A DNA stretch of 64,000 bases from an uncultured Gammaproteobacteria bacterium (lineage in GTDB: Bacteria > Patescibacteriota > Microgenomatia > UBA12405 > JAHJSD01): the NCBI GenBank assembly GCA_964498425.1, contig CAZCGQ010000001.1, forward strand, positions 99,063-163,062. Reading direction: 5' to 3'. The notes under the pieces were generated by a model that ran no database searches, was not told the DNA's origin, and worked only from the letters and a program-made list of their open reading frames with translations. How positions within the stretch are numbered: position 1 is the stretch's first letter; each line of letters opens with the position of its first letter. Below, one piece after another: positions 1,183 to 39,702 of the stretch. A program made the translations under genes and the position numbers.

Positions 1183-1194
1183 AATAAAAAATTA

Positions 1195-1246: not shown

Positions 1247-1319
1247 AAACTAGTAATTAGTAATCAGTAATTTAATGCATATATTCTTGTACGGCTTTAA
1301 GCATTAAGCCTTGAGCTCC

Positions 1320-10800: not shown

Positions 10801-11621
10801 AAATCATCGGCACCAAATTCTTGTAAATGGTGAAGCTCGGACTCAGTTAAAACTGACAAAACATCAATCGACTCCGCCTTATCAATCAAATCCTTCTTTA
10901 GTTCATCCAGCTTGTCGTGTTCAACCGCTTCCTTATTCTTTAACCGCTGTTTCTTTTGTCTAAATTTAACAGTTAATTCCTCTTTAGCAATGGCTAACTG
11001 GTCATTATCCTTAATTTCCTTCTTCAACCGAGCTTCTTCGTTTTTCTTTGACTCCTGAAGCTTCTTCATTTTTTCCTCAACTTGTTTAGAAATTGCTTCC
11101 TTCTTCGCCTCTACCCCATCTTCAATTTTTGCCGGTGCTCCTCGCTGAACTCGACCGTCAGTCCCCAAAACCATGTACCGGGCAAAATAAATTACACCTT
11201 CTAAATCCTTCCGGGAAATATTCAATAAGTAAGCCAAAGGTGAAAAAGTATTTTTCCAGTACCAAAGATGAACAATTGGAGCAGCCAAAGTAATATGTCC
11301 CATTCTTTCTCTTCTTACTCGAGAATGAGTTACTTCAACTCCACACTTGTCACACACAACACCCTTATATCTCCTCTTCTTATACTTACCGCAGTAACAT
11401 TGATAGTTCTTTGTTGGACCAAAAATCTTTTCGCAAAAAAGTCCATTTTTCTCCGGCCGCCAAGTACGATAATTAATTGTTTCCGGCTCAGTTACTTCCC
11501 CATGTGACCAGTCCTGAATCTCCTTAGGAGAAGCCAACTTAATCCTCAAGCCGTTAAATTCAGCTAAATCTCCAAAATCCTCAATAGACATATCTCGTTT
11601 TGTTTTTTTGTCGTCTGCCAT
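7857..11621 (-). CDS. rpoC: DNA-directed RNA polymerase subunit beta'
   Basis: 1254 aa; zinc-binding CxxC..CxxC N-terminus, NADFDGD catalytic motif, C-terminal CSTCYG zinc motif. The ATG overlaps the rpoB stop (TAATG). Confidence 0.97.
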
Positions 11622-14600
11622 TAGTCTTCCTTAACTGGATTAACCTTTAATCCTAGACCGGCTAATTCTTTAACCATAACCTTGAACGATTCCGGAATTC
11701 CTGGGTCTGGAATATCCCGCCCCTTGATCATTGATTGAAAAGCCTGACCTCGGCCGGTAATATCGTCGGACTTAATCGTTAACATTTCTTGTAATCCTTG
11801 TGAGGCTTTATGTGCTTCTAAAGCCCAAACTTCCATTTCTCCTAAACGCTGACCACCCATCCGAGCCTTTCCACCTAAAGGCTGTTGGGTAACCAAAGAG
11901 TAAGGACCAGTTGATCGGGCATGGACTTTATCCTGCACCATGTGAATAAGCTTCATGATGTAACCAACCCCGACTACTGACTTTTGAGCATAAGGTCGAC
12001 CGGTCTTGCCATTAAATAACTGGGCCTTGCCATCAACCGGCAGTTCTGCTTCCTTTAATAATTCCACCATTTCATTTTCTGACAATGCCTCAAACACTGG
12101 TAATGCGTATTTTTTACCCAACTTCTTTCCCGCCCAACCCAAGTGGGTTTCCATAATTTGGCCTAAGTTCATTCGGGCAATAACCGATAACGGAGAAATA
12201 ACAATATCCACCGGAGTGCCATCTTCCAAGTAAGGCATATCCTGGGAAGGAACTATCTTGGAAATTACTCCTTTATTCCCATGCCTTCCAGCTAATTTGT
12301 CGCCAACCTTGGCTTTGCGCAGTTGTGCAACTGAAACCTTAATAACCTTATTTATTCCCGGATCAAGCTCATCGCCCTCATCACGGTCAAGAACATTGAC
12401 ATCAATAACTGTTCCCCCTTCGCCGTGAGGAATTCTTAAGCTGGTATCTTTAACATCCTTGGCTTTTTCACCGAAAATAGCCCGAAGCAATCTTTCTTCA
12501 GCCGTCAATTCCTTTTCTCCCTTAGGTTCAACTTTTCCAACTAAAATATCGTGAGCTCCAACGTTAGCTCCAACCATCACAATTCCATCTTCAGTTAAAT
12601 TAGCTAAATCTGATTCGGCAACATTAGGAATATCCCGGGTAACCTCTTCCGGACCAAGTTTAGTTTCAACAACCTCGGCCTCGTACTCTTCAATTTGAAT
12701 AGAAGTAAAAGTATCATCCTTTAACAACCGGTCCGAGATAGCAATAGCGTCTTCATAAACCAATCCTTCAAACGGGGCATAAGCAATGAGCAAGTTTTTG
12801 CCCGGAGCAAATTCTCCGCCCTGGCATCCCGGGCCGTCAATAATCATCTGGCCCTTTTTAACCTTATCGCCAACTTCAACTACTGCCCGCTGACTGTAGC
12901 AAGTGCCATATGGGCTTGTTCTTCGATACTTATTAATATTGTAGGTCTTAGCCTTACCGTCTTTCTTAGATTTAACAACAATCTTTTCTCCATCAACGTA
13001 CTCAACTGTTCCTGCTTCCTCGGCTTCTTTTACCCAACCCATTGCTCGAGCAACAACTCCCTCCAAACCGGTACCAACAATTGGTGATTCCGGTCTAACC
13101 AAAGGAGCACCCTGGCAAAGCATGTGAGCACCCATCAAAGCCCGCTGAGGTTCATCGTGGGCAACAAAGGGAATCAAAGCCGCAGCAATTCCCAACACCT
13201 GTTGAGAAACATAATCAACTAACTGCACATTTTCTACCTTTGCTTCGAAGAACTCTCCCTGATGACGGACCGGGACCCAATCTTCAACAATATAGCCGTC
13301 CTCATCAATATTCACTCCGGAATGAGTAATATAGTATTCCTCTTCGTCATCTGCCGGTAAATAAACAACCTCGTCAGTAATCTTCATCTTTGTTTTACCG
13401 CCAGACTTAACCTTTTTAACCTTTCGGTAAGGGGCCTCTAAAAAGCCATACTTATTTATCTGGGAAAACAAAGCAAGGTAGGTTACCAAACCAATATTCA
13501 TTCCTTCCGGCGACCGGATTGGACAAATTCGACCGTATTGGGAATCATGAATGTCACGAATTGAAAATGAAGCCCGCTCCCGACTCAAACCGCCAGGACC
13601 AAGTACAGTTACCCGCCGAAGCAAGTCCAATTCGGAGAGGGGATTAGTTTGTTCAAGAATTGACGATAATTGATTTGTTCTGAAAAAAGAATTTACGGCG
13701 TTAGTGAAAACTTGCGAAGAAATTAACCGAGTCGGAGAAGTTCCATCCTTAGTTGGGCTAGCCAAACTCATTCGTTCCTTAACCATTCGCTCAAAACGCA
13801 TTGTTGCTGACCGCAAAGCAACTTGAACTACAATTTCGCCAACCTGACGAATTCGGCGATTGCCAAGATGATCAATATCATCAATTTTCTGGGCTTCGCC
13901 TTTCTGTAAAGCAATCAAATACTTCACCGTTGAAATTAAATCCTCCTGGCGTAAAACCCAATTTTCTTCCTTGTCGTCCGGATAAGAAAGACCTAACCTC
14001 TTGTTAATTTTATATCTGCCAACCTGGCCGAGTTCATATGATCGGGAATCAAAAAATCTTTCTCGGAAATTGTTGCGTGCAGTTTCAACAACCGCGGGTT
14101 CACCAGGCCGAATTTTTTGATAAAACTCGAGTAAAGCCTCTTCTTCACTTTGAGTAGTATCCTGTTCAATTGTCGGCTGAATGAATTTACCAAAAGTATC
14201 CAACAAAGCTCGATTTGATTCCAAACCTAAAGCCCGAAAAATGACTGTTGCTGGAAACTTTCTTCGCCGGTCAATCCGAGCGTAAATAATCCCTCGGCGG
14301 CTGACCAAAAACTCCAACCACGACCCTCTCAATGGTCTAATTTCTGCTTCATGCAGAGTTTTTCCTGTTCTTTCGTCTTCCTCTGCGGTAAAGTAAACAC
14401 CGGGAGACCGAACCAACTGGTTTAAAATACATCTTTCAATTCCACTAACAATAAAAGTCCCCTGCTTGGTCATCAGGGGTAAATTCAACAAAAAGACATC
14501 TTCAGTCTGTGTTTTATTTTTTCGCTTGTTGGTCAACTTGGCCTCAATCTCAATTGGCGCTGAATAAGTCAAATCCTTACGAAAAGCTTCATTGGGAGTA

Positions 14601-14803
14601 ACTGAAGGCTTACCCACCTTAATATCACCTAATTCTAATAACCAGTTTTTCCCAGTATAGTCTTCAATAGGAGCAATCGACCGAATTGTTTCCCCCAAAT
14701 CATGTTCAATGAATTTCTTCCAAGACTCTTTTTGAACTTTGGTTAAGTCTGATGGTTTTGGAGTAAATGGTTTCTTGCCCAAATAGCTTCGTTTTTTTGC
14801 CAT
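11621..14803 (-). CDS. rpoB: DNA-directed RNA polymerase subunit beta
   Basis: About 1060 aa; conserved rpoB blocks (GLVTYLALFSQINKYGF, GGQRLGEMEVWALEAHKASQGLQE). The track start 14830 is GTG; ATG at 14801-14803 (MAKKRSYLGKK) is a plausible start. Confidence 0.95.
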   Translation of the reverse strand: MAKKRSYLGKKPFTPKPSDLTKVQKESWKKFIEHDLGETIRSIAPIEDYTGKNWLLELGDIKVGKPSVTPNEAFRKDLTYSAPIEIEAKLTNKRKNKTQTEDVFLLNLPLMTKQGTFIVSGIERCILNQLVRSPGVYFTAEEDERTGKTLHEAEIRPLRGSWLEFLVSRRGIIYARIDRRRKFPATVIFRALGLESNRALLDTFGKFIQPTIEQDTTQSEEEALLEFYQKIRPGEPAVVETARNNFRERFFDSRSYELGQVGRYKINKRLGLSYPDDKEENWVLRQEDLISTVKYLIALQKGEAQKIDDIDHLGNRRIRQVGEIVVQVALRSATMRFERMVKERMSLASPTKDGTSPTRLISSQVFTNAVNSFFRTNQLSSILEQTNPLSELDLLRRVTVLGPGGLSRERASFSIRDIHDSQYGRICPIRSPEGMNIGLVTYLALFSQINKYGFLEAPYRKVKKVKSGGKTKMKITDEVVYLPADDEEEYYITHSGVNIDEDGYIVEDWVPVRHQGEFFEAKVENVQLVDYVSQQVLGIAAALIPFVAHDEPQRALMGAHMLCQGAPLVRPESPIVGTGLEGVVARAMGWVKEAEEAGTVEYVDGEKIVVKSKKDGKAKTYNINKYRRTSPYGTCYSQRAVVEVGDKVKKGQMIIDGPGCQGGEFAPGKNLLIAYAPFEGLVYEDAIAISDRLLKDDTFTSIQIEEYEAEVVETKLGPEEVTRDIPNVAESDLANLTEDGIVMVGANVGAHDILVGKVEPKGEKELTAEERLLRAIFGEKAKDVKDTSLRIPHGEGGTVIDVNVLDRDEGDELDPGINKVIKVSVAQLRKAKVGDKLAGRHGNKGVISKIVPSQDMPYLEDGTPVDIVISPLSVIARMNLGQIMETHLGWAGKKLGKKYALPVFEALSENEMVELLKEAELPVDGKAQLFNGKTGRPYAQKSVVGVGYIMKLIHMVQDKVHARSTGPYSLVTQQPLGGKARMGGQRLGEMEVWALEAHKASQGLQEMLTIKSDDITGRGQAFQSMIKGRDIPDPGIPESFKVMVKELAGLGLKVNPVKED

Positions 14804-14882
14804 ATGTTTACCCATACCAAAAAAAGACACGGACCTTAGTCCGTTGTCTTTGTCGTGGGCCTATTATAACACACCTGATTTA

Positions 14883-15824
14883 TTAATCAAGATATTCCCG
14901 GATGTTAGCATTATGCTCTTCAATGGTCTGAGCGTAATGCATCTGCCCACTGCGATCGGATATATAATACCAATAATCTGTCTCCTCGTAATTAACAACT
15001 GCTTTAATCGAACTTAGTGATGGGTTACAAATAGGCGTCGGCGGCAGTCCCTTATATAAATATGTATTATAAGGACTGTCGATTGTTTTCAAATCCCGCC
15101 CGGAAACTTGCGGCCACCAGTTTCCCTCACTTCCTTTCGCATATTGTACAGTAGCGTCAACTTGAAGCGGCCAATCATTCTGCCACCGCTTATAGAGAAT
15201 TCCCGCGACAATTCTTCTTGCCTGGTCAATTTTCGCCTCTCTTTCCACCAATGAAGCTAAAATCAAAACCTGGTTTTGGGTCATCTCCGTCTGGTTTTCT
15301 ACCGCTTGCCATTTTTGCTGAAAATTATCAGTTAATTTTTTAACCACCTGGGGAACAACAACATCCGTCGGCAGTAAATAAGAATCTGGAAACAATCGGC
15401 CTTCCTTTCCCCGGGTCAAACTTAGAAATTCCTCTTCCGGCAAATTAAAATTTTCATTAAGCAAATCGGCGTATTCTTCCCGACGCTGACCTTCAACAAA
15501 GGTTATCCACTCATCTACTCTCCCTTCCTGCAGTTCCTCAACCAACTCCGGAACATTATCTCCCGGAGAAAGTTTAAAACTGCCGGCTTGCAACTTGCCT
15601 ACCTTATCATTCAACCGTAAGTAAGCTAAAAAGGCTAAATCGCTCCGTATTAAACCTTGTTTTTGCAATCGGCTGGCAATCGACCGGGTTGGCTCACCGC
15701 GATTAACCACAAAAACCATCTCTTGACTGCCGCCGACCGGTTGTAGACTATATATATAGTAACCGATAACTCCAATGCCTAACAAAACCAATAAAAAAAT
15801 TGTTATTACTAGAAGTCTCCTCAT
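14883..15824 (-). CDS. mltG: Endolytic murein transglycosylase MltG (YceG-like)
   Basis: N-terminal TM helix plus YceG signature YNTYLYKGLPPTPICNPSLSSIKAV. Confidence 0.8.
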   Translation of the reverse strand: MRRLLVITIFLLVLLGIGVIGYYIYSLQPVGGSQEMVFVVNRGEPTRSIASRLQKQGLIRSDLAFLAYLRLNDKVGKLQAGSFKLSPGDNVPELVEELQEGRVDEWITFVEGQRREEYADLLNENFNLPEEEFLSLTRGKEGRLFPDSYLLPTDVVVPQVVKKLTDNFQQKWQAVENQTEMTQNQVLILASLVEREAKIDQARRIVAGILYKRWQNDWPLQVDATVQYAKGSEGNWWPQVSGRDLKTIDSPYNTYLYKGLPPTPICNPSLSSIKAVVNYEETDYWYYISDRSGQMHYAQTIEEHNANIREYLD

Positions 15825-15827
15825 TTT

Positions 15828-15867
15828 AACTAATCGCTAGCCACTAGCCACTAGCAACTAACACCTA
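15828..15867. repeat. Degenerate heptamer array (TAGTGGC-like, about 5 units) immediately upstream of mltG start
   Basis: Reverse complement reads taggtgt tagttgc tagtggc tagtggc tagcgat. Confidence 0.7.
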
Positions 15868-15871
15868 ATCT

Positions 15872-16072
15872 TTACACTTCTTCAAACAACGCCCGGCGGT
15901 AACTATCCTTTTTAGGATTATAAATAAATATCCGCCCACACTTACAAGTGACCTTCTTCGTTCCATCTTCACGATCTTCGCTCTTCCCGTTATCAAGCGG
16001 TGTACCACATCCGACACATCTACCCTGAGATAATAACCAAGCTTGGATTGGAGCAATAATGTTTTTAAACAC
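15872..16072 (-). CDS. Small zinc-ribbon protein (hypothetical)
   Basis: 66 aa with CVGCG ... CKCG cysteine pairs. Chosen over the overlapping alternative-frame ORF 15865..16089. Confidence 0.4.
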   Translation of the reverse strand: MFKNIIAPIQAWLLSQGRCVGCGTPLDNGKSEDREDGTKKVTCKCGRIFIYNPKKDSYRRALFEEV

Positions 16073-16127
16073 GCTTCACCTCCTTCCAAAAGAACTATTA
16101 ATGTTTTGAGATCTTACCATGAATTTT

Positions 16128-16865
16128 CTACTTGACCAAACGGGCTTTAACAATAAGCCTTCTCAAATAAGTCCCCGGCGGTGAGCAGGTTATTAAGGTC
16201 ATGTAGCGACCGTCATACCGTTGTTCTAAAACAGAAACATCGGTTGGTGGAACTTCAAACATTTTCTCAACTAAATATTCATATTTAATCCCGTCGTAAT
16301 TAAGAATAATTTTGTCGCCGGATTTCAGCGTATGCAAAGTTGAAAAAATGGTTAAATAATTCTTGGGGTTGTAAAATTGCGGCAAAACTGAATGGCCAAA
16401 AACAACGGAATTACCCAATTGCCCCGGCATTGCCGTACCTTGATAATGAATTAGCTTCTTTTTTAGATCTTCGCCGCCAATTTGCACCCAGGCATCGTCA
16501 ATATTCAATTTTGGAATTGACAATCGATAATCGGTTACTTGCGGGGCTTCTTGATAGTCAAGCTCTATTGTTTCATCAAACCAAGAGGAAATCATTGTGT
16601 AATCCGGATTATCCTCATGAGCTGACACTGCCATCGACCCCAAACTCCTTGACCGCTGTTGAACAACTGGGCTGAGCATTTTACCCCGAAAGCGGTTAGA
16701 ATACCGAACCTGATAGCCGATCATTGGAATAACGGCATTGCCAACCAAAACCAATCCCCCAATAGAAAAGAGCAGTGAAAAAAGCTTCTTTCTTTGTTGT
16801 TTTCCTGGGCCAGGTTTTTTAGGGACCTTTTTTGGACGTCCCTTTTCATAAACGTATAGCGGCAT
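16128..16865 (-). CDS. Sortase family transpeptidase
   Basis: N-terminal TM anchor; catalytic His context VVFGHS; TLITCSP (TLxTC active-site Cys motif). 3 nt from the upstream 715-aa gene. Confidence 0.85.
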   Translation of the reverse strand: MPLYVYEKGRPKKVPKKPGPGKQQRKKLFSLLFSIGGLVLVGNAVIPMIGYQVRYSNRFRGKMLSPVVQQRSRSLGSMAVSAHEDNPDYTMISSWFDETIELDYQEAPQVTDYRLSIPKLNIDDAWVQIGGEDLKKKLIHYQGTAMPGQLGNSVVFGHSVLPQFYNPKNYLTIFSTLHTLKSGDKIILNYDGIKYEYLVEKMFEVPPTDVSVLEQRYDGRYMTLITCSPPGTYLRRLIVKARLVK

Positions 16866-16867
16866 TG

Positions 16868-19015
16868 TTATTCCTCAACCTTAATAATAATGTTTTCTGG
16901 CTTAAGAGGCAAGTAGCCAATATATTTCAGCCAGGGGAATTGATAATTAACTTCATGCCGATAAATCCTTGGATAAGACTGGCGGATTAATTCTTTTGCC
17001 TTATCTTCCTTCTTACTAATAACTTCACGACTCAACTTTTCTTTATCGATTTCGGGATAAGCCTCTCCCTTTAAAGTTAGTGTGCCGCTAATTCCTTCTT
17101 CATCATCCTCATTAACATCAAGCTTAGCTTTCAAACTTCCATCTCTTAATTCATAACCTGCTTCAATTTTTTCTGATAAAACTTGTTCAGCAATTTTTAA
17201 CAACCGCTCTTGACTAATTTTAGCCGCCGTCACCTTGGCAGTCATTTCTAATCCAACGTTATCAACCTCATCCCCTACCTCAGCCGTAAACTCCTCCTCA
17301 ACAATACTTGCTTCCAAACTACCACTAATCAGTTGACTGTCCGATAATTTCGACTTCAACTCTTTTTCCGCCTCCGATTTCAACTCTTCAGACAAACTCT
17401 CTCTTAACTTCGCCAAATCTTCTTCGGAAACTGCTCTAATCTTCCTACTTGTCCCCCCGCTGAAAGCCGACTCATTCCGGGCCAAATAATCATCTTCGGA
17501 ATTGTCAGCAATCGTAAAAGTACTTTCTGCCGCCAAATTGTATTCCGCTCCAATTTCACCAGCCGTTACCTCAGCCGTCGTTTCACCCCAACGATCAACT
17601 CCGGTATTCAAATCTGCCGTTTTGGAAGCGACCGAAACATCATTATTGAAAACAAACTCCAATCCGCCCGGTCCAGATAAACTTGTTCCGGCATCAAATT
17701 CTGCCCGCTCGGCCGTCCGGTTAAAAACTTTAACTTCACCCGTTGATTTTTCACCGATTAATTTTTCTCCAGTTGTTGCCCGACTTTTTTCTCCGTCCTT
17801 CTCAACCGAAACCTGATCGGCAGGAATAATACCATTATCCAAATCAACTGACTTAGCTTCCGAATCTAACTGCACCTCCACTTCATCCGATAACTCCTCC
17901 GGGGTTACATAAATCATCACTGTTGCCTTAGAAAAACGCCAGCTCAAAAAAAGGCCGCCGCCAAAAACAATCAAAAATCCGATGACAATAAACACCCAGC
18001 GTTGACCTAAAAAGGCAAAACTGATCTTTGGCATTTTTATTTTAGGCAGTTTCTTTTTCAAACCGGCTCCAATCGGCTTTGGTTTTGGTTTTTGTTCTTG
18101 TTCCGGCTTTGGCTCAATCTTGCTTACCGCCGGCTTTTCTTCTTCAGATGGCTCTGCCTCTTCTTCCGGTTTCTTACTACCAGCACCCCACTCTCCCTGG
18201 GCAACATCAGTGGAACTAAAACCAAAAGCGTCAACTTCCGGTTCTGGTTCCGGCTCCGGCTTGGATTTCGGCTCAACTTCAGTAACTAACTCTTCTTCGG
18301 GTTCTTTCGCCAAACTTGTTTTTTGAGGAACAACCTCCAGTTTAACCTCACCCTTAATTACCTGTGCTGCCATCTTTAAAAATTCCGGCCACAGAAAAAC
18401 CTTAATTTTCGGCACCCGGTCAAATATTTTTTCTTCCTGCCACTGATGAGACAACAACCGATCCTTATTGCCATCCTTAATCTTCCCCCAAAAAACCAAC
18501 TCCTGGGGAATCATCGCTTTCCCATTCAACTGCCTCAAAAAAATAGCAACATCTTCGGGATCAATATCCTCCCCGTTTTCCAACTCTTCTTGCACCTCAA
18601 CACTCTTTTCCTTTAAAACTGAAAACCGAAGATAATTACTACCAAAATAAACGCTGACAAAGTCATCATAATAATTGGCCAAAACTTCCTCGCCAACTAA
18701 AAATCCTTCTGGATTTATCCTTAACTGTTTGCAAACATGTTGAAGAATTTTTTTGCGGCTGGGCAGAACTTCACTCCGATGGCTGACCCAAAAAGGCGGC
18801 AAAATAAAAACCGTCCTCTCCGGCCGAGGAATTCCTTCCTCTTTGGCCAAACAAGTTCCAATACCGGAATCCAGAGCGGCTACCAAACTATTCGGATCTT
18901 CCCCATCCCAACCTTTCTCCTGACTAACCATCAACTCCCCACTTTCTGTCAGCATGCCAACAACCGCTTCTTTCTCCTCAATTAAAATTATCCACTTATT
19001 CTCCCCCTTATCCAT
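16868..19015 (-). CDS. Large membrane protein, co-operonic with the sortase
   Basis: 715 aa; N-terminal IILIEEKEAVVGMLTESGELMV has an actin-like (FtsA/PilM-like, tentative) flavour; PE/K-rich low-complexity region; single TM (FIVIGFLIVFGGGLFL); acidic Ser/Glu-rich C-terminal ectodomain. Confidence 0.5.
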   Translation of the reverse strand: MDKGENKWIILIEEKEAVVGMLTESGELMVSQEKGWDGEDPNSLVAALDSGIGTCLAKEEGIPRPERTVFILPPFWVSHRSEVLPSRKKILQHVCKQLRINPEGFLVGEEVLANYYDDFVSVYFGSNYLRFSVLKEKSVEVQEELENGEDIDPEDVAIFLRQLNGKAMIPQELVFWGKIKDGNKDRLLSHQWQEEKIFDRVPKIKVFLWPEFLKMAAQVIKGEVKLEVVPQKTSLAKEPEEELVTEVEPKSKPEPEPEPEVDAFGFSSTDVAQGEWGAGSKKPEEEAEPSEEEKPAVSKIEPKPEQEQKPKPKPIGAGLKKKLPKIKMPKISFAFLGQRWVFIVIGFLIVFGGGLFLSWRFSKATVMIYVTPEELSDEVEVQLDSEAKSVDLDNGIIPADQVSVEKDGEKSRATTGEKLIGEKSTGEVKVFNRTAERAEFDAGTSLSGPGGLEFVFNNDVSVASKTADLNTGVDRWGETTAEVTAGEIGAEYNLAAESTFTIADNSEDDYLARNESAFSGGTSRKIRAVSEEDLAKLRESLSEELKSEAEKELKSKLSDSQLISGSLEASIVEEEFTAEVGDEVDNVGLEMTAKVTAAKISQERLLKIAEQVLSEKIEAGYELRDGSLKAKLDVNEDDEEGISGTLTLKGEAYPEIDKEKLSREVISKKEDKAKELIRQSYPRIYRHEVNYQFPWLKYIGYLPLKPENIIIKVEE

Positions 19016-19032
19016 ACATAAAATATAGCATA

Positions 19033-19110
19033 GCTAGTAATTAGTAGCTAGGGGCTAGGTGTTAGCGGCTAGGTGCTGGTGACTGGTGGTTAGTGACCGA
19101 CCATACAATT
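19033..19110. repeat. Heptamer array (about 9 units TAGNNNN) plus conserved box TTAGTGACCGACCATACAATTTTACTTCGCC, in the 5' region of the 16868-19015 gene
   Basis: tagtaat tagtagc taggggc taggtgt tagcggc taggtgc tggtgac tggtggt tagtgac, then the box. Confidence 0.75.
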
Positions 19111-20928
19111 TTACTTCGCCATATCTAACTTTGCGTAAATGCGACGCTTGCCAGCCCCAGAAGACTCCTCCTTGATAATCTCAAATTTCCCCAGCTCCCC
19201 AGTCGAATCAACATGCGGCCCACCGCAGATTTCCTTTGAAAAAGAATCTATTTCATAAACCTTAACTTCCTCCGGATAATTCTTCCCTGGTATATATCCC
19301 GCCCCACTTTCTTTCGCCTCCTCTAAACTCATTGTTTTCTGGTTAACCGGTAAATCCTCCTCAATTTTCTGGTTTATCAGTTTCTCAACCGCCTCAACTT
19401 CCTCTTCTGTCAAAGCCTTGGGATGAGGAAAATCGAACCGAAGCTTTTCAGTTGTTATTGCCGATCCGGCTTGATGAACATGTTCTCCTAAAACTTCCTT
19501 TAAAGCCTGGTGAAGAAGATGAGTTGCCGTGTGGAGCTGAATCGTTTCTTCCTTTTGCTCTGCCATTCCCCCTTTAAAAATATCCTTGGCCGCTTTCCGC
19601 GACAATTCCTTATGCCGGTTCATTTCTTCATAAAATCCGTCAATATCAACCTCAACATCCGGCCGGATCCGGTTAACTTCTTCAACTGTTATTTCTAACG
19701 GAAAACCATAAGATTGATAAAGGTCAAAAACAGCCATTCCGCTTAGCTGTCCTTTCTTATTAACCTTATTTAATTCCTCGACTAATTTTTTTAGCCCCCG
19801 ATCAAGGACCTTGAAAAATCGCTTCTCCTCTTTAACCAAATTCGATAAAATAAATTCCCGGTTGTCACCAAGCTTTCGGTAATCATCAGCATAACTGGCA
19901 ATAACCTCCTTGCCAATCAAATCGGCAAACTCCCGCTCAATCCCAAGCAGTTTGCCAAACCGGACCGCCCGCCGAATTAACCGTCTTAAAACATATCCCT
20001 GCCGCTTATTGCTCGGTAAAATTTCTTCTCCTAGAACAAAGACCGCCGCCCGCAGGTGGTCAACAATAATCCGCATATATTTAGTTTCTTCTTCATTCTT
20101 TCCATATTCCTTCCCACTAATTTCTTCTAATTCTTTAATCATTCCGGCCAATGGTTCAATCTGGTAATCATCGTAATGGCCCTGTAAAACGGCAACCATT
20201 CTGGCTAACCCCATGCCGGTATCAACATTCTGCTGAGACAGTTTCTCATAGCTTCCATCTTCTTTACGGTTATATTCAATAAAAACATTATTCCAAATCT
20301 CAATCCACTTACCACAGTCACATCCCGGCTGACATTTTTCGCCGCAGGCGTCTTTGCCGGTATCATAGAAAATCTCCGTATCCGGCCCACCCGGTCCGGT
20401 CTCACCGACTTCCCACCAATTATCTTTTTTTCCCAATGGAAATATTCTATCCTCCGGCATACCAACCGCCAACCAGGCCTTTTTTGCCTCTTCATCAAAA
20501 GGAGCGTTTTCATTTCCCTCAAAAATCGTTACTGCCAGTCTTTCCGGATCCATCCTTAACTCTTTAGTTAAAAATTCCCAACTCCAGGAAATTGATTCCT
20601 CTTTGAAATAGCCCGCCTTGCCGAAAACGTCAGTCGAGGCAGGTCCGCCCAGCGACCAATTACCAAGCATTTCAAACCAAGTGTGATGATAAGTATCTCC
20701 AACATTATCTATATCCACTGTCCGTAAACACTCCTGAACATCAGCCAGCCGGGCTCCCATCGGGTGCTTTTGGCCGACAAAGTAAGGCACCAAAGGATGA
20801 ATACCGGCGGAAATAAACAAAGTAGAAGTATCCCCCTCCGGAATCAAAGGAGCAGACGGAATCCACTTATGCCCTCTTGCCTCAAAAAACTCCCGAAATT
20901 TGGTAATCAATTCCTCCCTAGTCATCAT
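19111..20928 (-). CDS. alaS: Alanine--tRNA ligase, short form lacking the C-terminal C-Ala domain
   Basis: Class II AlaRS N-terminus (FFEARGHKW, HHTWFEMLGNWSLG) and editing-domain HxxxH (LHTATHLLHQAL), but only about 605 aa. The track start 20949 is TTG; ATG ATG (MMTREEL) at 20928 is the likely start. Confidence 0.9.
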   Translation of the reverse strand: MMTREELITKFREFFEARGHKWIPSAPLIPEGDTSTLFISAGIHPLVPYFVGQKHPMGARLADVQECLRTVDIDNVGDTYHHTWFEMLGNWSLGGPASTDVFGKAGYFKEESISWSWEFLTKELRMDPERLAVTIFEGNENAPFDEEAKKAWLAVGMPEDRIFPLGKKDNWWEVGETGPGGPDTEIFYDTGKDACGEKCQPGCDCGKWIEIWNNVFIEYNRKEDGSYEKLSQQNVDTGMGLARMVAVLQGHYDDYQIEPLAGMIKELEEISGKEYGKNEEETKYMRIIVDHLRAAVFVLGEEILPSNKRQGYVLRRLIRRAVRFGKLLGIEREFADLIGKEVIASYADDYRKLGDNREFILSNLVKEEKRFFKVLDRGLKKLVEELNKVNKKGQLSGMAVFDLYQSYGFPLEITVEEVNRIRPDVEVDIDGFYEEMNRHKELSRKAAKDIFKGGMAEQKEETIQLHTATHLLHQALKEVLGEHVHQAGSAITTEKLRFDFPHPKALTEEEVEAVEKLINQKIEEDLPVNQKTMSLEEAKESGAGYIPGKNYPEEVKVYEIDSFSKEICGGPHVDSTGELGKFEIIKEESSGAGKRRIYAKLDMAK

Positions 20929-20988
20929 AGAGTAGTATAACAAAAACAACTCACATTGCTCAATTGTTAAAACCGGAAAAATAAGAAT

Positions 20989-21057
20989 CTAGTAATAATT
21001 AGTGGCTGGGTGCTAGTGGCTAGTGATTAGTGACCGGCCATATATATTTAAAGCGAA
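20989..21057. repeat. Heptamer array plus conserved box TTAGTGACCGGCCATATATATTTAAAGCGAA upstream of alaS
   Basis: tagtaat..tagtggc tgggtgc tagtggc tagtgat tagtgac, then the box; near-identical to the 21822-21890 copy. Confidence 0.75.
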
Positions 21058-21102
21058 ATTTAAGAATTATTTTTGAAAATTGAACATTGAAAATTCGAAA
21101 AT

Positions 21103-21804
21103 TTATAATGTTCCTTTGTACAAATCCCAGGCGGTAATCAATCCCCGAATTTCGGCTGAAGACTTGCCGTCATCGGTCAAAAAGATAACCCCCAATCGCT
21201 TACCTTTATCAATATGGCGTTCAAAAAGATAATGAACTTCATGAAAATCGGCATCGGCTTTCAAAAAATCATAATTATCCGACCCCTCAACACCCTCTAA
21301 ATAATTTTCCACTTCCGCCATCGTCTCTTCGGCATTAAAATTGCCATCAGCAATTAACTGCAGTAAAGAATTCTCCGAAAAAACTCCGTAAAACTTATCC
21401 TTGTTAACTACTGGAACATGCGAGAACATCCGCTGGTTCATCACCCGAACTACCTCGCCAACCGTTGTGTCCCGATGAGCCTTATAAATGCTTTCCTCCG
21501 GCGTAGCAATATCAACCGCTTTCCGGCAAAAGGCGGAAACCAACTTTTCCAACTTAACCACCGCCGCTGATTCAATTTCAACAAATGACGGGGCGTGCGT
21601 TCCAACGTTACGAAGATTGAACAAACCCAAAACATCACCCTCGCTGATCCCCAAATCCTGAGCCCGGTCATGCTCAGCATCCCAAAAAAAACGGACATTA
21701 CGGTACATCGAATCGCTCTTAAATCGAACACTCAAATACCTCGCCCAACGCTCATAAAGTTCAAGAAACCTCGCTGTTAAATCCTTATCTTTTTCTTCAA
21801 CCAT
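21103..21804 (-). CDS. CBS domain-containing protein (hypothetical)
   Basis: CBS-like segment TVGEVVRVMNQRMFSHVPVVNKDKFYGVFSENSLLQLIADG. Confidence 0.5.
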   Translation of the reverse strand: MVEEKDKDLTARFLELYERWARYLSVRFKSDSMYRNVRFFWDAEHDRAQDLGISEGDVLGLFNLRNVGTHAPSFVEIESAAVVKLEKLVSAFCRKAVDIATPEESIYKAHRDTTVGEVVRVMNQRMFSHVPVVNKDKFYGVFSENSLLQLIADGNFNAEETMAEVENYLEGVEGSDNYDFLKADADFHEVHYLFERHIDKGKRLGVIFLTDDGKSSAEIRGLITAWDLYKGTL

Positions 21805-21821
21805 GCTTCAATAATAGCATA

Positions 21822-21890
21822 TAGTGACTAGGTGCTAGTGGTTAGTGATTAGTGACCGGCCATATATACTTAAAGCGAAGTAAATTGATA
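21822..21890. repeat. Heptamer array plus conserved box TTAGTGACCGGCCATATATACTTAAAGCGAAGTAAATTG upstream of the CBS-protein gene
   Basis: tagtgac taggtgc tagtggt tagtgat tagtgac, then the box. A partial box (catacaattttacttcgc) also occurs at 22028-22045. Confidence 0.75.
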
Positions 21891-22135
21891 TGTTCCGAAC
21901 ATGCCTCTTCGAATACCCTCCTAACAGTCTAACTAAGTAATGAATATTTTGGGTATGAGAAGCGGAGTGAATTAATGACAAAAAATATTAAATAAGCACA
22001 GCCAATGAATGAACGTCATAGAGGAACATACAATTTTACTTCGCTAAACAAGCTTTTTGCGAAGCGGGGAGTCTAGCGAACTATATAGGTGAGCGATATC
22101 CCTGGAAACATAATCATTGAGTAAAACCAACAAGG

Positions 22136-23047
22136 TTATTCTTCTTTTTTGGTTTCCTTTTTTGAAGCCTTTTTCTTCTTCTTTTTTCTCTCCAACGGCA
22201 GGAAGTAAATTCCAATCAAAATCAATCCAGCGATAACCAAAAACAATCCAAGCAACTTCCACCAACTAAACCCGGCTATTCTTCCCTCTTCCATCCCCGT
22301 CGGCGAAACCTCGGGTGAAGGTGTAACCTCCTCATCACCAGTCGGCTCATCTGTCGGCTCGGGAGTATCCGTTGGTTCAGTTGTTCCGGTTGGCTCAGGA
22401 GTACCTGTTGGTTCCGGCGTGTCCGTCGGGTCTGGTTCTTCAGTTGCTGTTGGTTCAGGGGTATTGGTTGGTTCCATATGGTATTCAATTTCCAAACTCG
22501 GCGAATTTTCAGCTGCCTCTCGTGACCGGAAAGAAAAAGCAAAATCCGGTGTCCCATCAGCCGGATAGATAAACAAACCATTATTTTCCTTTTCACCATT
22601 CAACCACTGCCGAACCATGTAGGTTATCGCAATTTCTTTTTCACCGGTATCTAAATTAATTTCCTCGGTCATCACTTCGTCATCAAAAATTTCCGGCTGA
22701 TTATCCCAGGTCAAACCGCCTTCACTCCAGTCACTGTCAACCGGGCCAATTTCCACTTCAGCCGAATCAGCATAATTTTGCTCATAAATGTAAAACTTTA
22801 AAATACCCCGGTCTAAAATCGCCCCTTCCGGGATATCAATATCCCCAAACTTTACGTAACCGTGACGGGTTGTCGCTTCATTGCTGACAATTATTGCCTG
22901 CTGACCGCCCCGGGCTTCATCCGGATAGGCTTCATTGGCATAAGTATCAGAAGTCGGCTCAAATTGTTCAGTTTCCGCCATTACCGGCGAAGTCATGAAG
23001 GTAAAAAGAAGAATAAAGATTGCCATCAATCCCAATAATTTCTTCAT
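22136..23047 (-). CDS. Secreted/surface protein with DNRLRE-like domain, Thr/Pro-rich repeats and a C-terminal TM anchor with K-rich tail (sortase-substrate-like)
   Basis: Signal peptide MKKLLGLMAIFILLFTFMTSPVMA (start taken at ATG 23047, not the 23182 extension); GGLTWDNQPE motif; PEPTDTPEPTGT repeats. C-terminus is ...EVSPTGMEEGRIAGFSWWKLLGLFLVIAGLILIGIYFLPLERKKKKKKASKK. Confidence 0.7.
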   Translation of the reverse strand: MKKLLGLMAIFILLFTFMTSPVMAETEQFEPTSDTYANEAYPDEARGGQQAIIVSNEATTRHGYVKFGDIDIPEGAILDRGILKFYIYEQNYADSAEVEIGPVDSDWSEGGLTWDNQPEIFDDEVMTEEINLDTGEKEIAITYMVRQWLNGEKENNGLFIYPADGTPDFAFSFRSREAAENSPSLEIEYHMEPTNTPEPTATEEPDPTDTPEPTGTPEPTGTTEPTDTPEPTDEPTGDEEVTPSPEVSPTGMEEGRIAGFSWWKLLGLFLVIAGLILIGIYFLPLERKKKKKKASKKETKKEE

Positions 23048-23142
23048 TGCTTGGATTATAAGCCGCCCAACCCCTAAAGTCAATTTTCTATGTCTTTTTC
23101 CTCCTGTCATCTCGAGCTTGTCGAGAGATCCCTTTTTAATCC

Positions 23143-23442
23143 CTAATAAGACCAACCATAATCCAATGCTAAATCCCGCCAACCAGGGTTAAATTTTTTA
23201 ATCAAGTTAGTCTTCTTTTCTCTTCTCCACTTTTTAATTTGCTTTTCTCTTGCCAAAGCTTCTTCTACATTTTCAAATTCTTCAAAGTAAACTAACTTAT
23301 GACACTGATATTTTTTTGAAAAACCAATTATTAAATCCATTTTATGCTGCCAAACTCTCTGTTTTAAATCTCCGGTTACCCCGATGTATATAGTTCCAGA
23401 ATTACTGGCCATTATATATATGTAGTATTTTTTAGGAGCCAC
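23143..23442 (-). CDS. GIY-YIG nuclease-domain protein (small, YhbQ-like)
   Basis: YIYIMASNSGTIYIGVTGDLKQRVWQH is the GIY-YIG core; 99 aa. Confidence 0.75.
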   Translation of the reverse strand: MAPKKYYIYIMASNSGTIYIGVTGDLKQRVWQHKMDLIIGFSKKYQCHKLVYFEEFENVEEALAREKQIKKWRREKKTNLIKKFNPGWRDLALDYGWSY

Positions 23443-30775: not shown

Positions 30776-32368
30776 CTAATCCCTTTCAAAATTCCAAAAC
30801 CAATCCCATTCTGGCTCCTCAATTTCTTCAATATCCGACTCTTCCAACCTATATTCCCCATCATAATCTCCAACTTTCTGTGTTCCCTCAAAATATTTAT
30901 GAATTAACTTTTCATCAATTAAGTCCGCCGAATAAAACTTAACAAAGACCGTATTTTCTTCATCCTCTACTTCCTCAGATTTAACAAATACAACATACAA
31001 AGTATTTTCATAACCTTCCTTCCACCGCTCAAATGTCCAGTCAGTATATTCCCGGGAAAGCAAATCATACGCCTTTTTTAATTCTCCAGTTGTTTGATAA
31101 TTATAAAAAGCCCGAACACATTCAAGTGGACTTTCGTTCGGCTTAAATTCAATTTTCTCAACGTCAGCAACTGGGTCATCAGCCTTCCGCATTTCATCCC
31201 ACTTTTGATTAATTAGATCATTAGCAGATATCCCAAAACTCAATCCTTCTCGATACAACTGATTTACCCCATAAACTTTGCCGCAAATATCAATCATCGG
31301 ACCACCGCTCATTCCATGGCCTAGTTGGATATCCGTTTGTATCATCTTAGTTGGAAATCCCTCTGGTTGTCTAAGATCAATAAAATGTCCTTTATTAAAA
31401 GTTGCTTCACCGGGTACCGAAGTCCCCAAGGGATAACCAACAGCAATTAACTCATCTAAATTTTCTAGATTGTTAACATCACCAAATTCTAAACTTGGTA
31501 TATTCTCTAGGCCAGAGTCTACCTGAATAAGTGCCAAATCTGATTCCTTATCCGCAGCAATAACCTTCCCTTGCAAAGGGGTGTAGTCCGGCAAAACAAT
31601 CTTCGGTCTCATGTCTCTGGCAATAACATGATGATTCGTCACTACATAGGGATCAGCTATGAGAAATCTGTTTTTCTTAACAAGAAAACCTGAGCCTTCA
31701 ACATTCCTGCCAATAATTCTAACTACACTTTTTTTAACCTCTTCAACTGTTTCCTTTTCATCACAAAGAAGCCTGCTTTCCCCAATTGCCGTCTCAAGTC
31801 TAACCACCCTTTCCGTCAACTGCCAATTTCTCCAACCCAAAAAGCCAATTACTGCCACCAACAGCAACACCCCTAACTTTCGAAAATTCAAATTTATTTT
31901 TTTTCTTTGTCTCTTAGCTCCCAAATATACAAAGTCCTTTTCATCTTTCTTGCGCTCGATTCCTTCAAAAAACTTCCGAACCGGTTTAAATATCCTCAAA
32001 ATCCAAACCAAAAACTGAAATACAAAAAAAAACAAAAAATAATCACCGACTAAACCAATCCAAGTATTCCCTACATCAGCGCTCATCGCAAACCAAAGCA
32101 GAAAACCAAGTTGCCCAATAAAAAATATCAGCCGTGCAAAACGAGCCCTTTCCCCAATGTTTTTATAAATCAATTGGTAAAGAAAAAGAAAAGAAGGAAC
32201 AAAAAACAAAATACTTAAATATCCCAACCACTCAATCTCCAAAAACTCACTCGACACATACATTCCCACCCCAATCAAAAAAGCCCCAACAACAAAAACC
32301 TTATTACTAAAAATAACTTTGGACTTGGATATTAATCTATTACTTTCTCTCACTCCACTCTTCGGCAA
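30776..32368 (-). CDS. Membrane-anchored trypsin-like serine protease (S1/DegP-like)
   Basis: N-terminal multi-TM region; catalytic triad contexts TNHHVI (His), DLALIQVD (Asp), [11 protein letters not shown] (GxSGGP Ser). Confidence 0.75.
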
Positions 32369-35300: not shown

Positions 35301-35468
35301 CTTTTCCAAAACCACATCGTCATAAGTCATACGCTCAAACGGATCAAACCTACCATTTGTTTCCGTCACCGGCTCCGGACTAATATCCGGCCCAAACATT
35401 GTTTGGTACCCTAATTTCTCGAGCCAACCTAAAACTGCTTTTTCCAGTGATGATTCTTTATATTTCAT
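32340..35468 (-). CDS. hsdR: Type I restriction enzyme R subunit
   Basis: HsdR_N hallmark [19 protein letters not shown]; helicase motif [12 protein letters not shown]; motif [12 protein letters not shown]; 1042 aa. Confidence 0.93.
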
Positions 35469-36228: not shown

Positions 36229-36251
36229 TTACTTTTTAAAAAATAAAAACT

Positions 36252-37370: not shown

Positions 37371-37400
37371 TTCATTTCCTAATTAACATTATACACAATA

Positions 37401-39672: not shown

Positions 39673-39702
39673 ATTTTAAACCTCTTTATTTTAATTGTGT
39701 TT

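What the first reader, a model, noticed from the sequence alone, without database searches (positions are those of the whole stretch)
15828..22048. Family of degenerate TAGTGGC heptamer arrays plus a conserved about 30-bp box in the 5' regions of four consecutive minus-strand genes
There are four copies. Three (19033-19110, 20989-21057, 21822-21890) carry 5-9 tandem, imperfect 7-bp units (TAGTGGC/TAGGTGC/TAGTGAC) followed by a box TTAGTGACCGGCCATATATA(T/C)TTAAAGCGAA (variant TTAGTGACCGACCATACAATTTTACTTCGCC). The fourth, upstream of mltG at 15828-15867, is the array alone without the box. All have the same orientation relative to the downstream gene. On the transcribed strand the units read GCCACTA/CACCUAG and lie in or near the 5' UTR. 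In one case the array ends 10 nt before the start codon. A 7-bp period is not helical phasing. The units are too degenerate for slipped-strand phase variation and the arrays are far too short-period for CRISPR. They could be reiterated regulator binding sites, a 5'-UTR RNA element (CACCU resembles the 16S 3' tail neighbourhood), or a lineage-specific intergenic repeat family.
Basis: seen in the sequence. Interest (0 to 1): 0.65.

Follow-up and report, generated by a model that had tools for sequence, protein, structure and literature searches.

The report
Degenerate 7-bp intergenic repeat arrays
The TAGTGGC-type arrays are real, but they are best read as decaying heptanucleotide simple-sequence repeats, joined to a piece of a small inverted-repeat element, which have filled the intergenic spacers of one clade of tiny-genome (Microgenomates/CPR) bacteria; this is a known and fairly ordinary kind of bacterial repeat rather than a new regulatory element.

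Summary
The arrays exist and are far beyond chance: 4 arrays of at least 5 units against 0.01 expected. An independent assembly that is 100% identical confirms them. The mltG copy is inverted. A fifth array (1251-1272) was missed. The arrays lie upstream of extended -10 promoters of apparently leaderless genes, not in 5' UTRs.

Sites 2-4 are copies of one 45-58-nt composite: five ordered heptads plus CCGRCCATA. The distal part of its box matches the terminal inverted repeat of a neighbouring 172-bp hairpin element. At site 2 the box supplies the alaS stop codon.

Relatives with 71-84% AlaRS identity carry heptamer arrays at the same two spacers, but with different units and copy numbers. More distant relatives have no spacer there. 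Period-7 arrays are the commonest tandem-repeat class in the clade loci, at about 6 times the density in unrelated loci. TAGTGRY arrays also occur in more than 120 unrelated metagenome contigs (31-70% GC), with no strand bias.

Best reading: heptanucleotide simple-sequence repeats like the cyanobacterial STRR repeats, made by slippage and local copying. They act passively as six-frame stop spacers and as promoter-upstream filler. A role as binding arrays for a heptad-recognising ribbon-helix-helix protein (like omega of pSM19035), or at RNA level, is not excluded. No binding protein, RNA fold or Rfam match was found.

The parts
1251..1272 (+). It lies in the rpsJ-rplC spacer, in the same orientation as sites 2-4.
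   Evidence: TRF; context.
15826..15867 (-). Site 1: TAGGTGT TAGTTGC TAGTGGC TAGTGGC TAGCGAT TAGTTAA, read on the minus (sense) strand. It fills the spacer between the stop of the 66-aa zinc-ribbon ORF and the yceG/mltG ATG. It is inverted relative to the other sites and has no box.
   Evidence: As RNA it forms a hairpin of -17 kcal/mol, z = -3.9. The orthologous spacers in L068, L069 and L063 also carry 7-8-bp arrays.
19035..19097 (+). Site 2 array: 9 degenerate heptads between the alaS stop and the extended -10 of the 715-aa gene.
   Evidence: The five distal units align in register with site 3. The proximal units are orthologous to a 3-unit array in L064.
19090..19120 (+). Site 2 box: TTAGTGACCGACCATACAATTTTACTTCGCC. 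It contains the alaS stop codon (19111-19113) and encodes the atypical C-terminal tail DMAK.
19022..19030 (-). Extended -10 (TGCTATATT) of the 715-aa gene. It ends 6 nt before the ATG at 19015 and is conserved in L063, L064 and L065.
20989..21034 (+). Site 3 array: TAGTAAT, a 3-nt offset, then TAGTGGC TGGGTGC TAGTGGC TAGTGAT TAGTGAC. It lies upstream of the -35 of the alaS promoter.
   Evidence: The promoter TTGAGC-18-TATACT at 20963-20934 is conserved in L064.
21027..21057 (+). Site 3 box: TTAGTGACCGGCCATATATATTTAAAGCGAA.
21822..21856 (+). Site 4 array: TAGTGAC TAGGTGC TAGTGGT TAGTGAT TAGTGAC. It abuts the extended -10 (TGCTATTAT, 21811-21819) of the CBS-domain gene.
21849..21879 (+). Site 4 box: TTAGTGACCGGCCATATATACTTAAAGCGAA. 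It runs directly into the left arm of the inverted-repeat element.
21874..22045 (.). 172-bp MITE-like inverted-repeat element. Its 23-nt arms are AGCGAAGTAAATTGATATGTTCC and GGAACATACAATTTTACTTCGCT. The right-arm sequence equals the distal part of the site-2 box, and a copy is also present in L064.
   Evidence: I1, 87% complementary; fold z = -3.6.
22046..22120 (-). Half copy of a second small element with the terminal repeat CAATGATTATGTTTC. L063 (alaS-downstream spacer) and L064 (alaS-upstream spacer) carry copies showing both inverted ends in the spacer sequences; halves occur in L064 and L065.

Best explanation
The arrays are degenerate heptanucleotide simple-sequence repeats of the kind described as long SSRs in prokaryotes and as STRR repeats in cyanobacteria. 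They have colonised the intergenic spacers of one Microgenomates (CPR) clade.

Inferred history:
- Short YTAG-N3 arrays arose by replication slippage at gene ends in an ancestrally compact alaS...yceG operon.
- They persisted and drifted by point mutation, mostly transitions at unit positions 4-7.
- In this genome, a five-unit block fused to CCGRCCATA and to a fragment of a small inverted-repeat element was copied locally to three spacers.

They need no dedicated factor. Their effects are passive:
1. YTAG every 7 nt puts stop codons in all six frames, so the arrays end upstream ORFs and even supply AlaRS C-terminal tails and stops.
2. They form the DNA directly upstream of the extended -10 promoters from which the downstream genes appear to be transcribed without a leader.

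Shown here: the anatomy, the homology among copies, the turnover between relatives, the excess of period-7 arrays in the clade, and the position relative to predicted promoters.
Inferred only: slippage as the generating process, passive function, and leaderless transcription.
For: Reality of the arrays:
- 4 arrays of at least 5 units observed against 0.01 expected.
- An identical independent assembly.

Excess of period-7 arrays:
- They are 13 of 26 tandem repeats in 132.6 kb of clade loci.
- There are none in 38 kb of more distant relatives and 7 in 444 kb of unrelated loci.

Turnover between relatives at orthologous spacers:
- Window: 9 units. L064: about 3 units.
- L068 and L069: TTTACTG-type units. 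L065: GGCTAAA x3. L063: AT-rich 8-mers.
- In L190 and L191 alaS overlaps the next gene, so there is no spacer and no array.

Effects on the upstream gene:
- AlaRS ends ...RIYAKL plus 1-2 residues in L063, L064 and L190.
- In L065, L068 and L069 the last 3-4 residues and the stop are encoded by heptamer units. In the window they are encoded by the box.

Copying of the composite:
- Sites 2-4 align in register over five units plus CCGRCCATA at 84-93%.
- The distal box equals an arm of the 172-bp inverted-repeat element and a copy in L064.

Wider occurrence:
- TAGTGRY arrays of 2-27 units occur in more than 120 metagenome contigs of 31-70% GC.
- 113 of 132 lie outside long ORFs, and flanking-gene orientation is ++27 against --22.
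- Those contigs also carry about 136 other period-7 arrays.

Published background:
- Heptanucleotide repeats are the most abundant class of 5-11-nt long SSRs in most of the repeat-rich prokaryotic genomes surveyed, and GTGATTA, a cyclic permutation of TAGTGAT, was reported in H. pylori (PMC4679880, PMC4692102).

Negative evidence for a dedicated function:
- No Rfam match.
- No significant RNA fold of array plus box.
- No RHH, ParA or Rho protein in the window.
Against: - The units are very imperfect (68-94% TRF matches), so slippage is not currently active. An old neutral array should decay evenly, yet TAG is nearly invariant (T 29/30, A 27/30, G 30/30) while positions 4-5 vary (T 21/30, G 16/30). 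That asymmetry hints at a constraint.
- Arrays occur at the same two spacers in every clade genome sampled, but not at most other spacers of the same loci. This could reflect selection rather than persistence.
- The near-identity of sites 3 and 4 (93%) could reflect selection as well as recent copying.
- Only 64 kb of the source genome and a few loci per relative were available.
- No expression data exist.
Confidence: 0.6

Rival explanations
1. The arrays are reiterated binding sites for a heptad-recognising DNA-binding protein. The model is the ribbon-helix-helix (RHH) omega/ParB protein of pSM19035, where one dimer binds each 7-bp unit co-operatively along the array. Here they would act as operators, or as nucleoid-structuring sites, next to promoters.
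For: - Omega binds 7-10 contiguous WATCACW heptads, in either orientation, that overlap promoters, and at least 4 contiguous units are needed for full ParA ATPase activation (PMC9499535).
- The window arrays have 5-9 contiguous heptads, whose complement reads A[AG][TC]CAC[TC].
- AGTGATT, present at sites 3 and 4, is an exact omega heptad.
- The arrays abut the extended -10 at sites 2 and 4.
- TAG is nearly invariant within otherwise drifting units.
- Arrays recur at the same spacers across the clade.
- Tolerance of an inverted copy (site 1) fits a DNA-level reader.
Against: - Only about 2 of 30 units match WATCACW exactly.
- Units differ strongly between relatives: TTTACTG, GGCTAAA and AT-rich 8-mers.
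- Distance to the promoter is inconsistent. Site 3 lies upstream of the -35, and site 1 lies between a stop and a start codon.
- Pfam found no RHH or other small DNA-binding protein in the window.
- Only one ParA-type Walker motif was found in 712 kb of array-bearing metagenome contigs.
Confidence: 0.17
2. The arrays act at RNA level on read-through or operon transcripts. At sites 2-5 the sense strand is C-rich, G-poor, unstructured and untranslatable, which could serve as a Rho-loading or insulating tract. At site 1 the sense strand is G-rich and SD-like or hairpin-forming directly before the yceG start codon, which could tune translation, as proposed for TAACTGA repeats in Beggiatoaceae.
For: - The site-2 sense strand is about 40% C and 11% G (counted), has stops in every frame and has no significant fold.
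- No hairpin-plus-U terminator was predicted in these spacers.
- Site 1 and its orthologues in L068, L069 and L063 end 1-4 nt before the ATG and are purine-rich: TAGGGG, TAGGTGA, AGGAATTT.
- Site 1 folds with z = -3.9.
- TAACTGA repeats sit in the same position and are proposed to be translational (PMC4679880).
Against: - Predicted extended -10 promoters put sites 2 and 4 upstream of the transcription start of the downstream gene.
- Orientation differs between sites, and the L065 array is G-rich on the sense strand.
- Across metagenome contigs there is no strand bias relative to flanking genes.
- The presence of Rho in this organism was not tested.
Confidence: 0.13
3. Array plus box is itself a small mobile element (MITE- or REP-like) that transposes into spacers, and the heptads form one of its ends.
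For: - There are three copies with conserved unit order plus CCGRCCATA.
- The distal box equals the terminal repeat of a 172-bp inverted-repeat element.
- The site-2 copy replaces the normal alaS terminus.
- Sites 3 and 4 are absent from the orthologous spacers of relatives, which instead carry another small element.
- TAGTGACCGAC also occurs, inverted, in L065.
Against: - The composite has no terminal inverted repeats and no recognisable target-site duplication.
- All three copies lie within 2.9 kb and none was found elsewhere in the 64-kb window.
- The 16-mer TTAGTGACCGRCCATA gave only single, apparently chance hits across 185,579 representative genomes.
- Local recombination between arrays explains the pattern equally well.
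Confidence: 0.1

Closest known systems
Heptanucleotide long simple-sequence repeats of prokaryotes, including the cyanobacterial STRR repeats (Mrazek 2007 and Calothrix PCC 7601, as summarised in PMC4679880 and PMC4692102)
   Same: - Head-to-tail 7-nt units.
- Mostly intergenic.
- Sporadic, lineage-specific abundance.
- Variable copy number between relatives.
- Period 7 dominates over other periods.
- The unit GTGATTA reported in H. pylori is a cyclic permutation of TAGTGAT.
   Different: - The units here are strongly degenerate rather than near-perfect.
- Three arrays are copies of one ordered five-unit block joined to a non-repetitive box.
- The host is a small-genome, low-GC CPR bacterium, whereas long-unit SSR richness was reported mainly for large, GC-rich genomes and cyanobacteria.
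TAACTGA direct repeats of marine Beggiatoaceae, Cyanobacteria and Bacteroidetes (PMC4679880)
   Same: - Intergenic heptamer arrays of 2-6 or more copies.
- Often directly upstream of start codons of unrelated genes that lack a Shine-Dalgarno sequence.
- Contain stop codons.
- Found near ribosomal-protein and RNA-polymerase genes.
   Different: - The unit is different.
- Only site 1 sits sense-oriented against a start codon. The others are antisense and lie upstream of predicted promoters.
GGGNATC / GGGGAYT heptamer repeats of Xanthomonas and Nostoc (PMC4692102)
   Same: - Heptameric intergenic arrays.
- Preferentially between co-oriented ORFs.
- Within about 50 bp of gene ends.
- Variable unit number.
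   Different: Those repeats are G-tract repeats that form G-quadruplexes, with a preference for four units. The TAGTGGC units have no GGG tracts.
Omega (RHH ParB) heptad operators / parS of pSM19035 (PMC9499535)
   Same: - 7-bp units in uninterrupted arrays of 5-10, next to or over promoters.
- Either orientation is tolerated.
- AGTGATT is an exact omega heptad.
   Different: - Most units deviate from WATCACW.
- The setting is chromosomal, among housekeeping genes.
- No RHH or ParA partner was found.
- Unit sequence is not conserved between relatives.
MITEs that contain tandem repeats (for example the Porphyromonas gingivalis MITE with an internal minisatellite, PMC4596501; abstract only seen)
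   Same: A small non-coding dispersed element that combines a unique part with an internal tandem array.
   Different: The array-plus-box composite has no terminal inverted repeats of its own. Only the adjacent 172-bp element has them.

Membership tests
Heptanucleotide simple-sequence repeat (long SSR / STRR-like) | Head-to-tail repeats of a 7-nt unit, at least 3 copies, longer than chance | tested here: met
   TRF reports period 7 at all five sites. Four arrays of at least 5 units observed against 0.01 expected.
Heptanucleotide simple-sequence repeat (long SSR / STRR-like) | Perfect or near-perfect units | tested here: inconclusive
   TRF matches are 68-94%. The 30 units have an invariant TAG but variable positions 4-7. 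They look like decayed rather than active SSRs.
Heptanucleotide simple-sequence repeat (long SSR / STRR-like) | Intergenic location, with lineage-wide excess of period 7 over other periods | tested here: met
   All arrays lie between ORFs or overlap only gene ends. 13 of 26 tandem repeats in clade loci have period 7, at 0.098 per kb against 0.016 per kb in unrelated loci and 0 in distant relatives.
Heptanucleotide simple-sequence repeat (long SSR / STRR-like) | Copy number and unit sequence vary between related genomes | tested here: met
   The orthologous alaS-downstream and yceG-upstream spacers compared in six genomes.
Omega-type RHH heptad operator / parS | At least 4 contiguous 7-bp units without gaps | tested here: met
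   5-9 contiguous units at sites 1-4. The requirement is taken from PMC9499535.
Omega-type RHH heptad operator / parS | Unit consensus WATCACW | tested here: not met
   Only the TAGTGAT-T units at sites 3 and 4 match exactly. Most units have 1-2 mismatches in the ATCAC core.
Omega-type RHH heptad operator / parS | Cognate RHH protein (and ParA) encoded nearby | tested here: not met
   Pfam scans of the ten small ORFs scanned and of most larger genes found no RHH or ParA. The rest of the genome was not available.
TAACTGA-type start-codon-proximal heptamer repeats | Sense-oriented array ending within a few nt of the start codon and replacing the SD sequence | tested here: inconclusive
   True for site 1 and its orthologues. 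Not true for sites 2-5. The unit sequence differs.
MITE | Terminal inverted repeats flanking a short non-coding element, in multiple copies | tested here: inconclusive
   Met by the 172-bp element 21874-22045. Not met by the array-plus-box composite, for which no inverted partner was reported. Target-site duplications were not identified.
Phase-variable contingency SSR | Perfect repeats within a promoter spacer or ORF, so that unit gain or loss switches expression | tested here: not met
   Adjacent units are almost never identical, and the genes are housekeeping genes.
Known structured RNA (Rfam) | Match to a covariance model, or a fold more stable than shuffled sequence | tested here: not met
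   No gathering-level hits in the window, and only one weak, irrelevant hit at E <= 1. z-scores for array plus box are -0.1 to -1.9.

The most novel reading that the evidence does not exclude
The heptad arrays are a chromosomal operator system. A still unidentified heptad-reading protein, ribbon-helix-helix like omega, polymerises along YTAG-N3 arrays placed against extended -10 promoters and at gene ends. It thereby co-ordinates or insulates a set of leaderless housekeeping genes (alaS, yceG/mltG, a CBS protein, a large surface protein, the S10 operon) in a CPR clade. The invariant TAG and the recurrence of arrays at the same spacers would then be the footprint of selection by that protein.
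Probability: 0.12. Interest if true: 0.6.

Novelty: new member of a known kind. Interest (0 to 1): 0.3.

Why it matters
As read here, it matters modestly.
- It records that a small-genome Patescibacteria/Microgenomates clade is rich in heptanucleotide repeats. That trait was previously described mainly for cyanobacteria, Xanthomonas, Burkholderia and Beggiatoaceae.
- It shows how such repeats and small inverted-repeat elements accompany the break-up of a compact operon into separately promoted, apparently leaderless genes.
- It shows that the repeats can rewrite the C-terminus and stop codon of an essential enzyme (AlaRS).
- For annotation, it warns that these arrays are not UTR elements, CRISPRs or riboswitches.

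If the minority reading is right and the arrays are protein-binding heptad operators, this would be a rare view of transcription control in uncultivated CPR bacteria.

Tried and rejected
1. A scan of representative genomes for the box core TTAGTGACCGRCCATA gave 62 single hits in unrelated taxa and none in relatives. The box is therefore not a widespread element and the source genome is not in that collection.
2. Look-ups of the source contig through the CBS protein and through P0001 found nothing on record. Only L192, identical to the window, was retrievable, so the rest of the 278-kb contig could not be surveyed.
3. A test of whether TAGTGRY is more common than permuted control heptamers (TGATGRY, GTTGARY) in viral contigs was uninformative.
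4. Literature searches for the literal repeat strings returned only primers and unrelated sequences.
5. The centromere (parS) idea was tested and rejected as a general explanation: one ParA Walker motif in 712 kb of array-bearing contigs.
6. RNA element: no Rfam hit and no significant fold.
7. A sigma-70-type promoter inside the box was considered. The consensus scan reports none there. There is only a weak 9/12 match just upstream of the site-3 box.
8. CRISPR, phase variation and iterons were rejected on period, degeneracy and context.
9. An idea from my own knowledge that YAG/CTR units mimic DnaG primase initiation trinucleotides (CTA, CTG) was considered but could not be tested.
Full report
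**1. What is in the sequence**

The window has 39% GC. All genes from about 0.2 to 23.7 kb lie on the minus strand. These include the str/S10 ribosomal-protein genes and rpoC, followed by:
- rpoB (11621-14830)
- yceG/mltG (14883-15824)
- a 66-aa CxxC zinc-ribbon ORF (15872-16072)
- sortase (16128-16865)
- a 715-aa protein (16868-19015)
- a short AlaRS (19111-20928)
- a CBS-domain protein (21103-21804)
- a CBM96 protein (22136-23182)

AlaRS relatives carry the names Microgenomates, Shapirobacteria and Patescibacteria, so the source is a CPR bacterium.

Imperfect tandem heptamers of consensus T-A-G-K-N-R-Y occur at four places:
- 19035-19097: 9 units
- 21000-21034: 5 units, plus one unit offset by 3 nt
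- 21822-21856: 5 units
- 15826-15867: 6 units, read on the minus strand

Arrays of at least 5 YRG-N4 units number 4, against a mean of 0.01 in Markov simulations. The 222 bp of arrays hold 13 of the window's 86 CTAG sites. A Logan contig assembled independently from run SRR15425351 is 100% identical over window 12225-21214. The arrays are therefore not an assembly artefact.

**2. Corrections to the observation**

- The mltG copy is inverted. There TAGTGGC is on the mRNA-sense strand. At the other sites it is on the antisense strand.
- There is a fifth array, TAGTAAT x3, at 1251-1272 in the rpsJ-rplC spacer.
- The distal half of the site-2 box, CATACAATTTTACTTCGC, recurs without any array at 22027-22044.
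- The site-2 box overlaps the end of alaS and contains its stop codon.

**3. Position relative to promoters**

Of 63 ORF-based gene models, 16 have an extended -10 (TGnTAnnnT) ending 4-10 nt before the start codon. At six control offsets the count is 0-2. This genome therefore appears to use many leaderless, extended -10 promoters.

Three of the four genes in the finding fit this pattern:

| Gene | Extended -10 | Gap to ATG |
|---|---|---|
| 715-aa gene | TGCTATATT | 6 nt |
| alaS | TGTTATACT | 5 nt |
| CBS gene | TGCTATTAT | 6 nt |

These core promoters are conserved in relatives. The alaS promoter also has a TTGAGC -35.

The arrays at sites 2 and 4 start 2-5 nt upstream of the extended -10. 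The site-3 array lies upstream of the -35. Only site 1 sits between a stop codon and a start codon. 'In the 5' UTR' is thus not the likely location. This rests on motif prediction, not on mapped transcription starts.

**4. The three boxed copies are one composite repeat**

Sites 3 and 4 share 58 nt at 93% identity. Site 2 aligns with them in register over five ordered units plus CCGRCCATA at 84%. The arrays were therefore copied as a block and not grown independently.

The distal box at site 2 equals one 23-nt arm of a 172-bp inverted-repeat element at 21874-22045. That element's arms are 87% complementary, and it folds with z = -3.6. It begins inside the site-4 box. A 34-nt copy at 97% identity lies in a different spacer of relative L064.

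Next to it, at 22046-22120, is half of a second small element with the terminal repeat CAATGATTATGTTTC. This element occurs with both inverted ends visible in the L063 and L064 spacers, and as a half in L064 and L065.

**5. Comparison with relatives**

Syntenic loci were recovered at these AlaRS identities:

| Locus | AlaRS identity |
|---|---|
| L064 | 84% |
| L063 | 77% |
| L065-L067 | 75% |
| L068 | 74% |
| L069 | 71% |
| L190 | 66% |
| L191 | 55% |

Every clade member at 71% or above has a short-period array in the alaS-downstream spacer, and those with sequence there also have one in the yceG-upstream spacer. The units differ, however:
- L068 and L069: AGTCACC/TTTACTG/GATTACC after alaS; TTAGGGG/ATAGTGA or GATAGGG before yceG
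- L065: GGCTAAA x3
- L064: about 3 units, orthologous to the promoter-proximal units of site 2
- L063: AT-rich 7-8-mers

Sites 3 and 4 have no counterpart in relatives. Those spacers carry the small inverted-repeat elements instead.

In L190 and L191 alaS overlaps the next gene by 4 nt, and TRF finds no period-7 array of at least three copies.

AlaRS ends ...RIYAKL plus 1-2 residues in L063, L064 and L190. In L065, L068 and L069 the last 3-4 residues and the stop are encoded by heptamer units. In the window they are encoded by the box.

Period 7 is the commonest tandem-repeat class in the clade loci: 13 of 26, or 0.098 per kb. In 444 kb of unrelated loci the density is 0.016 per kb.

**6. Outside the clade**

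These span 31-70% GC and carry arrays of 2-27 units.
- 113 of 132 arrays lie outside long ORFs.
- Flanking-gene orientation shows no bias: ++27 against --22.
- The same contigs carry about as many heptamer arrays of other units.
- Many arrays are paired with an inverted array across a short spacer.
- ParA is essentially absent from these contigs.

TAGTGRY therefore cannot be called special.

**7. What is already known**

Heptanucleotide repeats are the most abundant class of 5-11-nt long SSRs in most of the repeat-rich prokaryotic genomes surveyed, and polymerase slippage has been proposed as the cause (Mrazek 2007, as summarised in PMC4679880).

Described examples:
- Cyanobacterial STRRs.
- GTGATTA in H. 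pylori, a cyclic permutation of TAGTGAT, and GGGNATC/GGGGAYT in Xanthomonas and Nostoc (PMC4692102).
- TAACTGA repeats directly upstream of start codons in Beggiatoaceae (PMC4679880).

A protein-binding precedent for 7-bp arrays is omega/ParB of pSM19035. It binds 7-10 WATCACW heptads that overlap promoters (PMC9499535).

**8. Interpretation**

The best-supported reading (about 0.6) is that these are degenerate heptanucleotide simple-sequence repeats, plus fragments of small inverted-repeat elements, which colonised spacers opened in an ancestrally compact operon. Their effects would be passive. YTAG every 7 nt gives stop codons in all six frames, and the arrays make up the DNA upstream of the extended -10 promoters.

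Three things do not fit a purely neutral view:
- TAG is nearly invariant across 30 units while positions 4-7 drift.
- Arrays recur at the same two spacers in all clade genomes.
- Sites 3 and 4 are 93% identical.

These keep alive a protein-binding (omega-like) reading at about 0.17 and an RNA-level reading (Rho-loading tract, or translational tuning at site 1) at about 0.13. A transposing array-plus-box element gets about 0.1.

Nothing found here identifies a binding protein. No RHH, ParA or Rho protein is encoded in the window. There is no Rfam hit. Array plus box has no significant fold on either strand.

**9. Verdict**

The feature is a new lineage-specific member of a known and fairly ordinary class. 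Interest is low to moderate.

Noticed in passing
window 21874-22045: A 172-bp element with 23-nt terminal inverted repeats (87% complementary). As RNA it folds into a long hairpin (-45.6 kcal/mol, z = -3.6). It looks like a MITE. One arm also occurs in L064 615-648.
   Followed up: partly
window 22046-22120; L063 3866-3995; L064 about 665-810 and about 2700-2745; L065 8690-8712: A second small element with the terminal repeats CAATGATTATGTTTC...GAAACATAAATCATTG. It occupies different spacers in different relatives. The window has only a half copy.
   Followed up: partly
window 21073-21103 and 61320-61351; L063 4021-4052 and 7110-7139: A second, AT-rich set of 7-8-bp arrays (TTGAAAA, AAATTCG, GGAATTTA), also in spacers next to promoters or start codons.
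   Followed up: no
whole window: 16 of 63 gene models have an extended -10 (TGnTAnnnT) ending 4-10 nt before the start codon, against 0-2 at control offsets. This implies widespread leaderless mRNAs. A few genes, such as the 66-aa ORF and tuf, keep a canonical GGAGG Shine-Dalgarno sequence.
   Followed up: partly
window 14795-14882 (minus strand); L063 8079-8158; L065 14867-14962; L068 12630-12712; L069 6176-6300: A conserved rpoB leader: promoter TGTTATAAT followed by the hairpin ACGGACnnAGGTCCGT and a T-run. It is terminator- or attenuator-like and is conserved in all relatives, including L190.
   Followed up: no
window 1183-1272 (minus strand): The rpsJ-rplC spacer holds the TAGTAAT array, then two GC hairpins, a TATAAT, and a third hairpin followed by a T-run just before the rplC ATG. 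This may be an attenuator inside the S10 operon.
   Followed up: no
window 15872-16072 (minus strand): A 66-aa CxxC...CxC zinc-ribbon ORF with no Pfam match. It is conserved between sortase (or ruvX) and yceG in every relative examined.
   Followed up: no
window 32340-41690: A type I restriction-modification operon: hsdR, hsdS and hsdM. An AbiL-like pair (AAA_21 ATPase hitting the AbiLi/AriA models, plus a DUF4276 protein) and an RNase H-like RVT_3 ORF are inserted between the subunit genes.
   Followed up: partly
L065 10601-10638; L068 8433-8465; L069 about 1975-1995: Heptamer units (GCTAAGG, GCTAACA) run into the 3' end of alaS. They encode its last 3-4 residues and supply its stop codon.
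   Followed up: yes
L110, L127, L150, L171, L178, L188 and other metagenome loci: Many TAGTGRY arrays in unrelated bacteria are followed, after a short spacer, by the reverse-complement array. This gives long potential hairpins or cruciforms.
   Followed up: no
window about 21-57 kb compared with L190 and L191: In distant relatives RNase J, FtsK and an HTH gene lie only a few genes upstream of alaS. In the window they are about 36 kb away (57.5-61.3 kb). The intervening block, including the R-M/AbiL island, therefore looks like an insertion or rearrangement.
   Followed up: no
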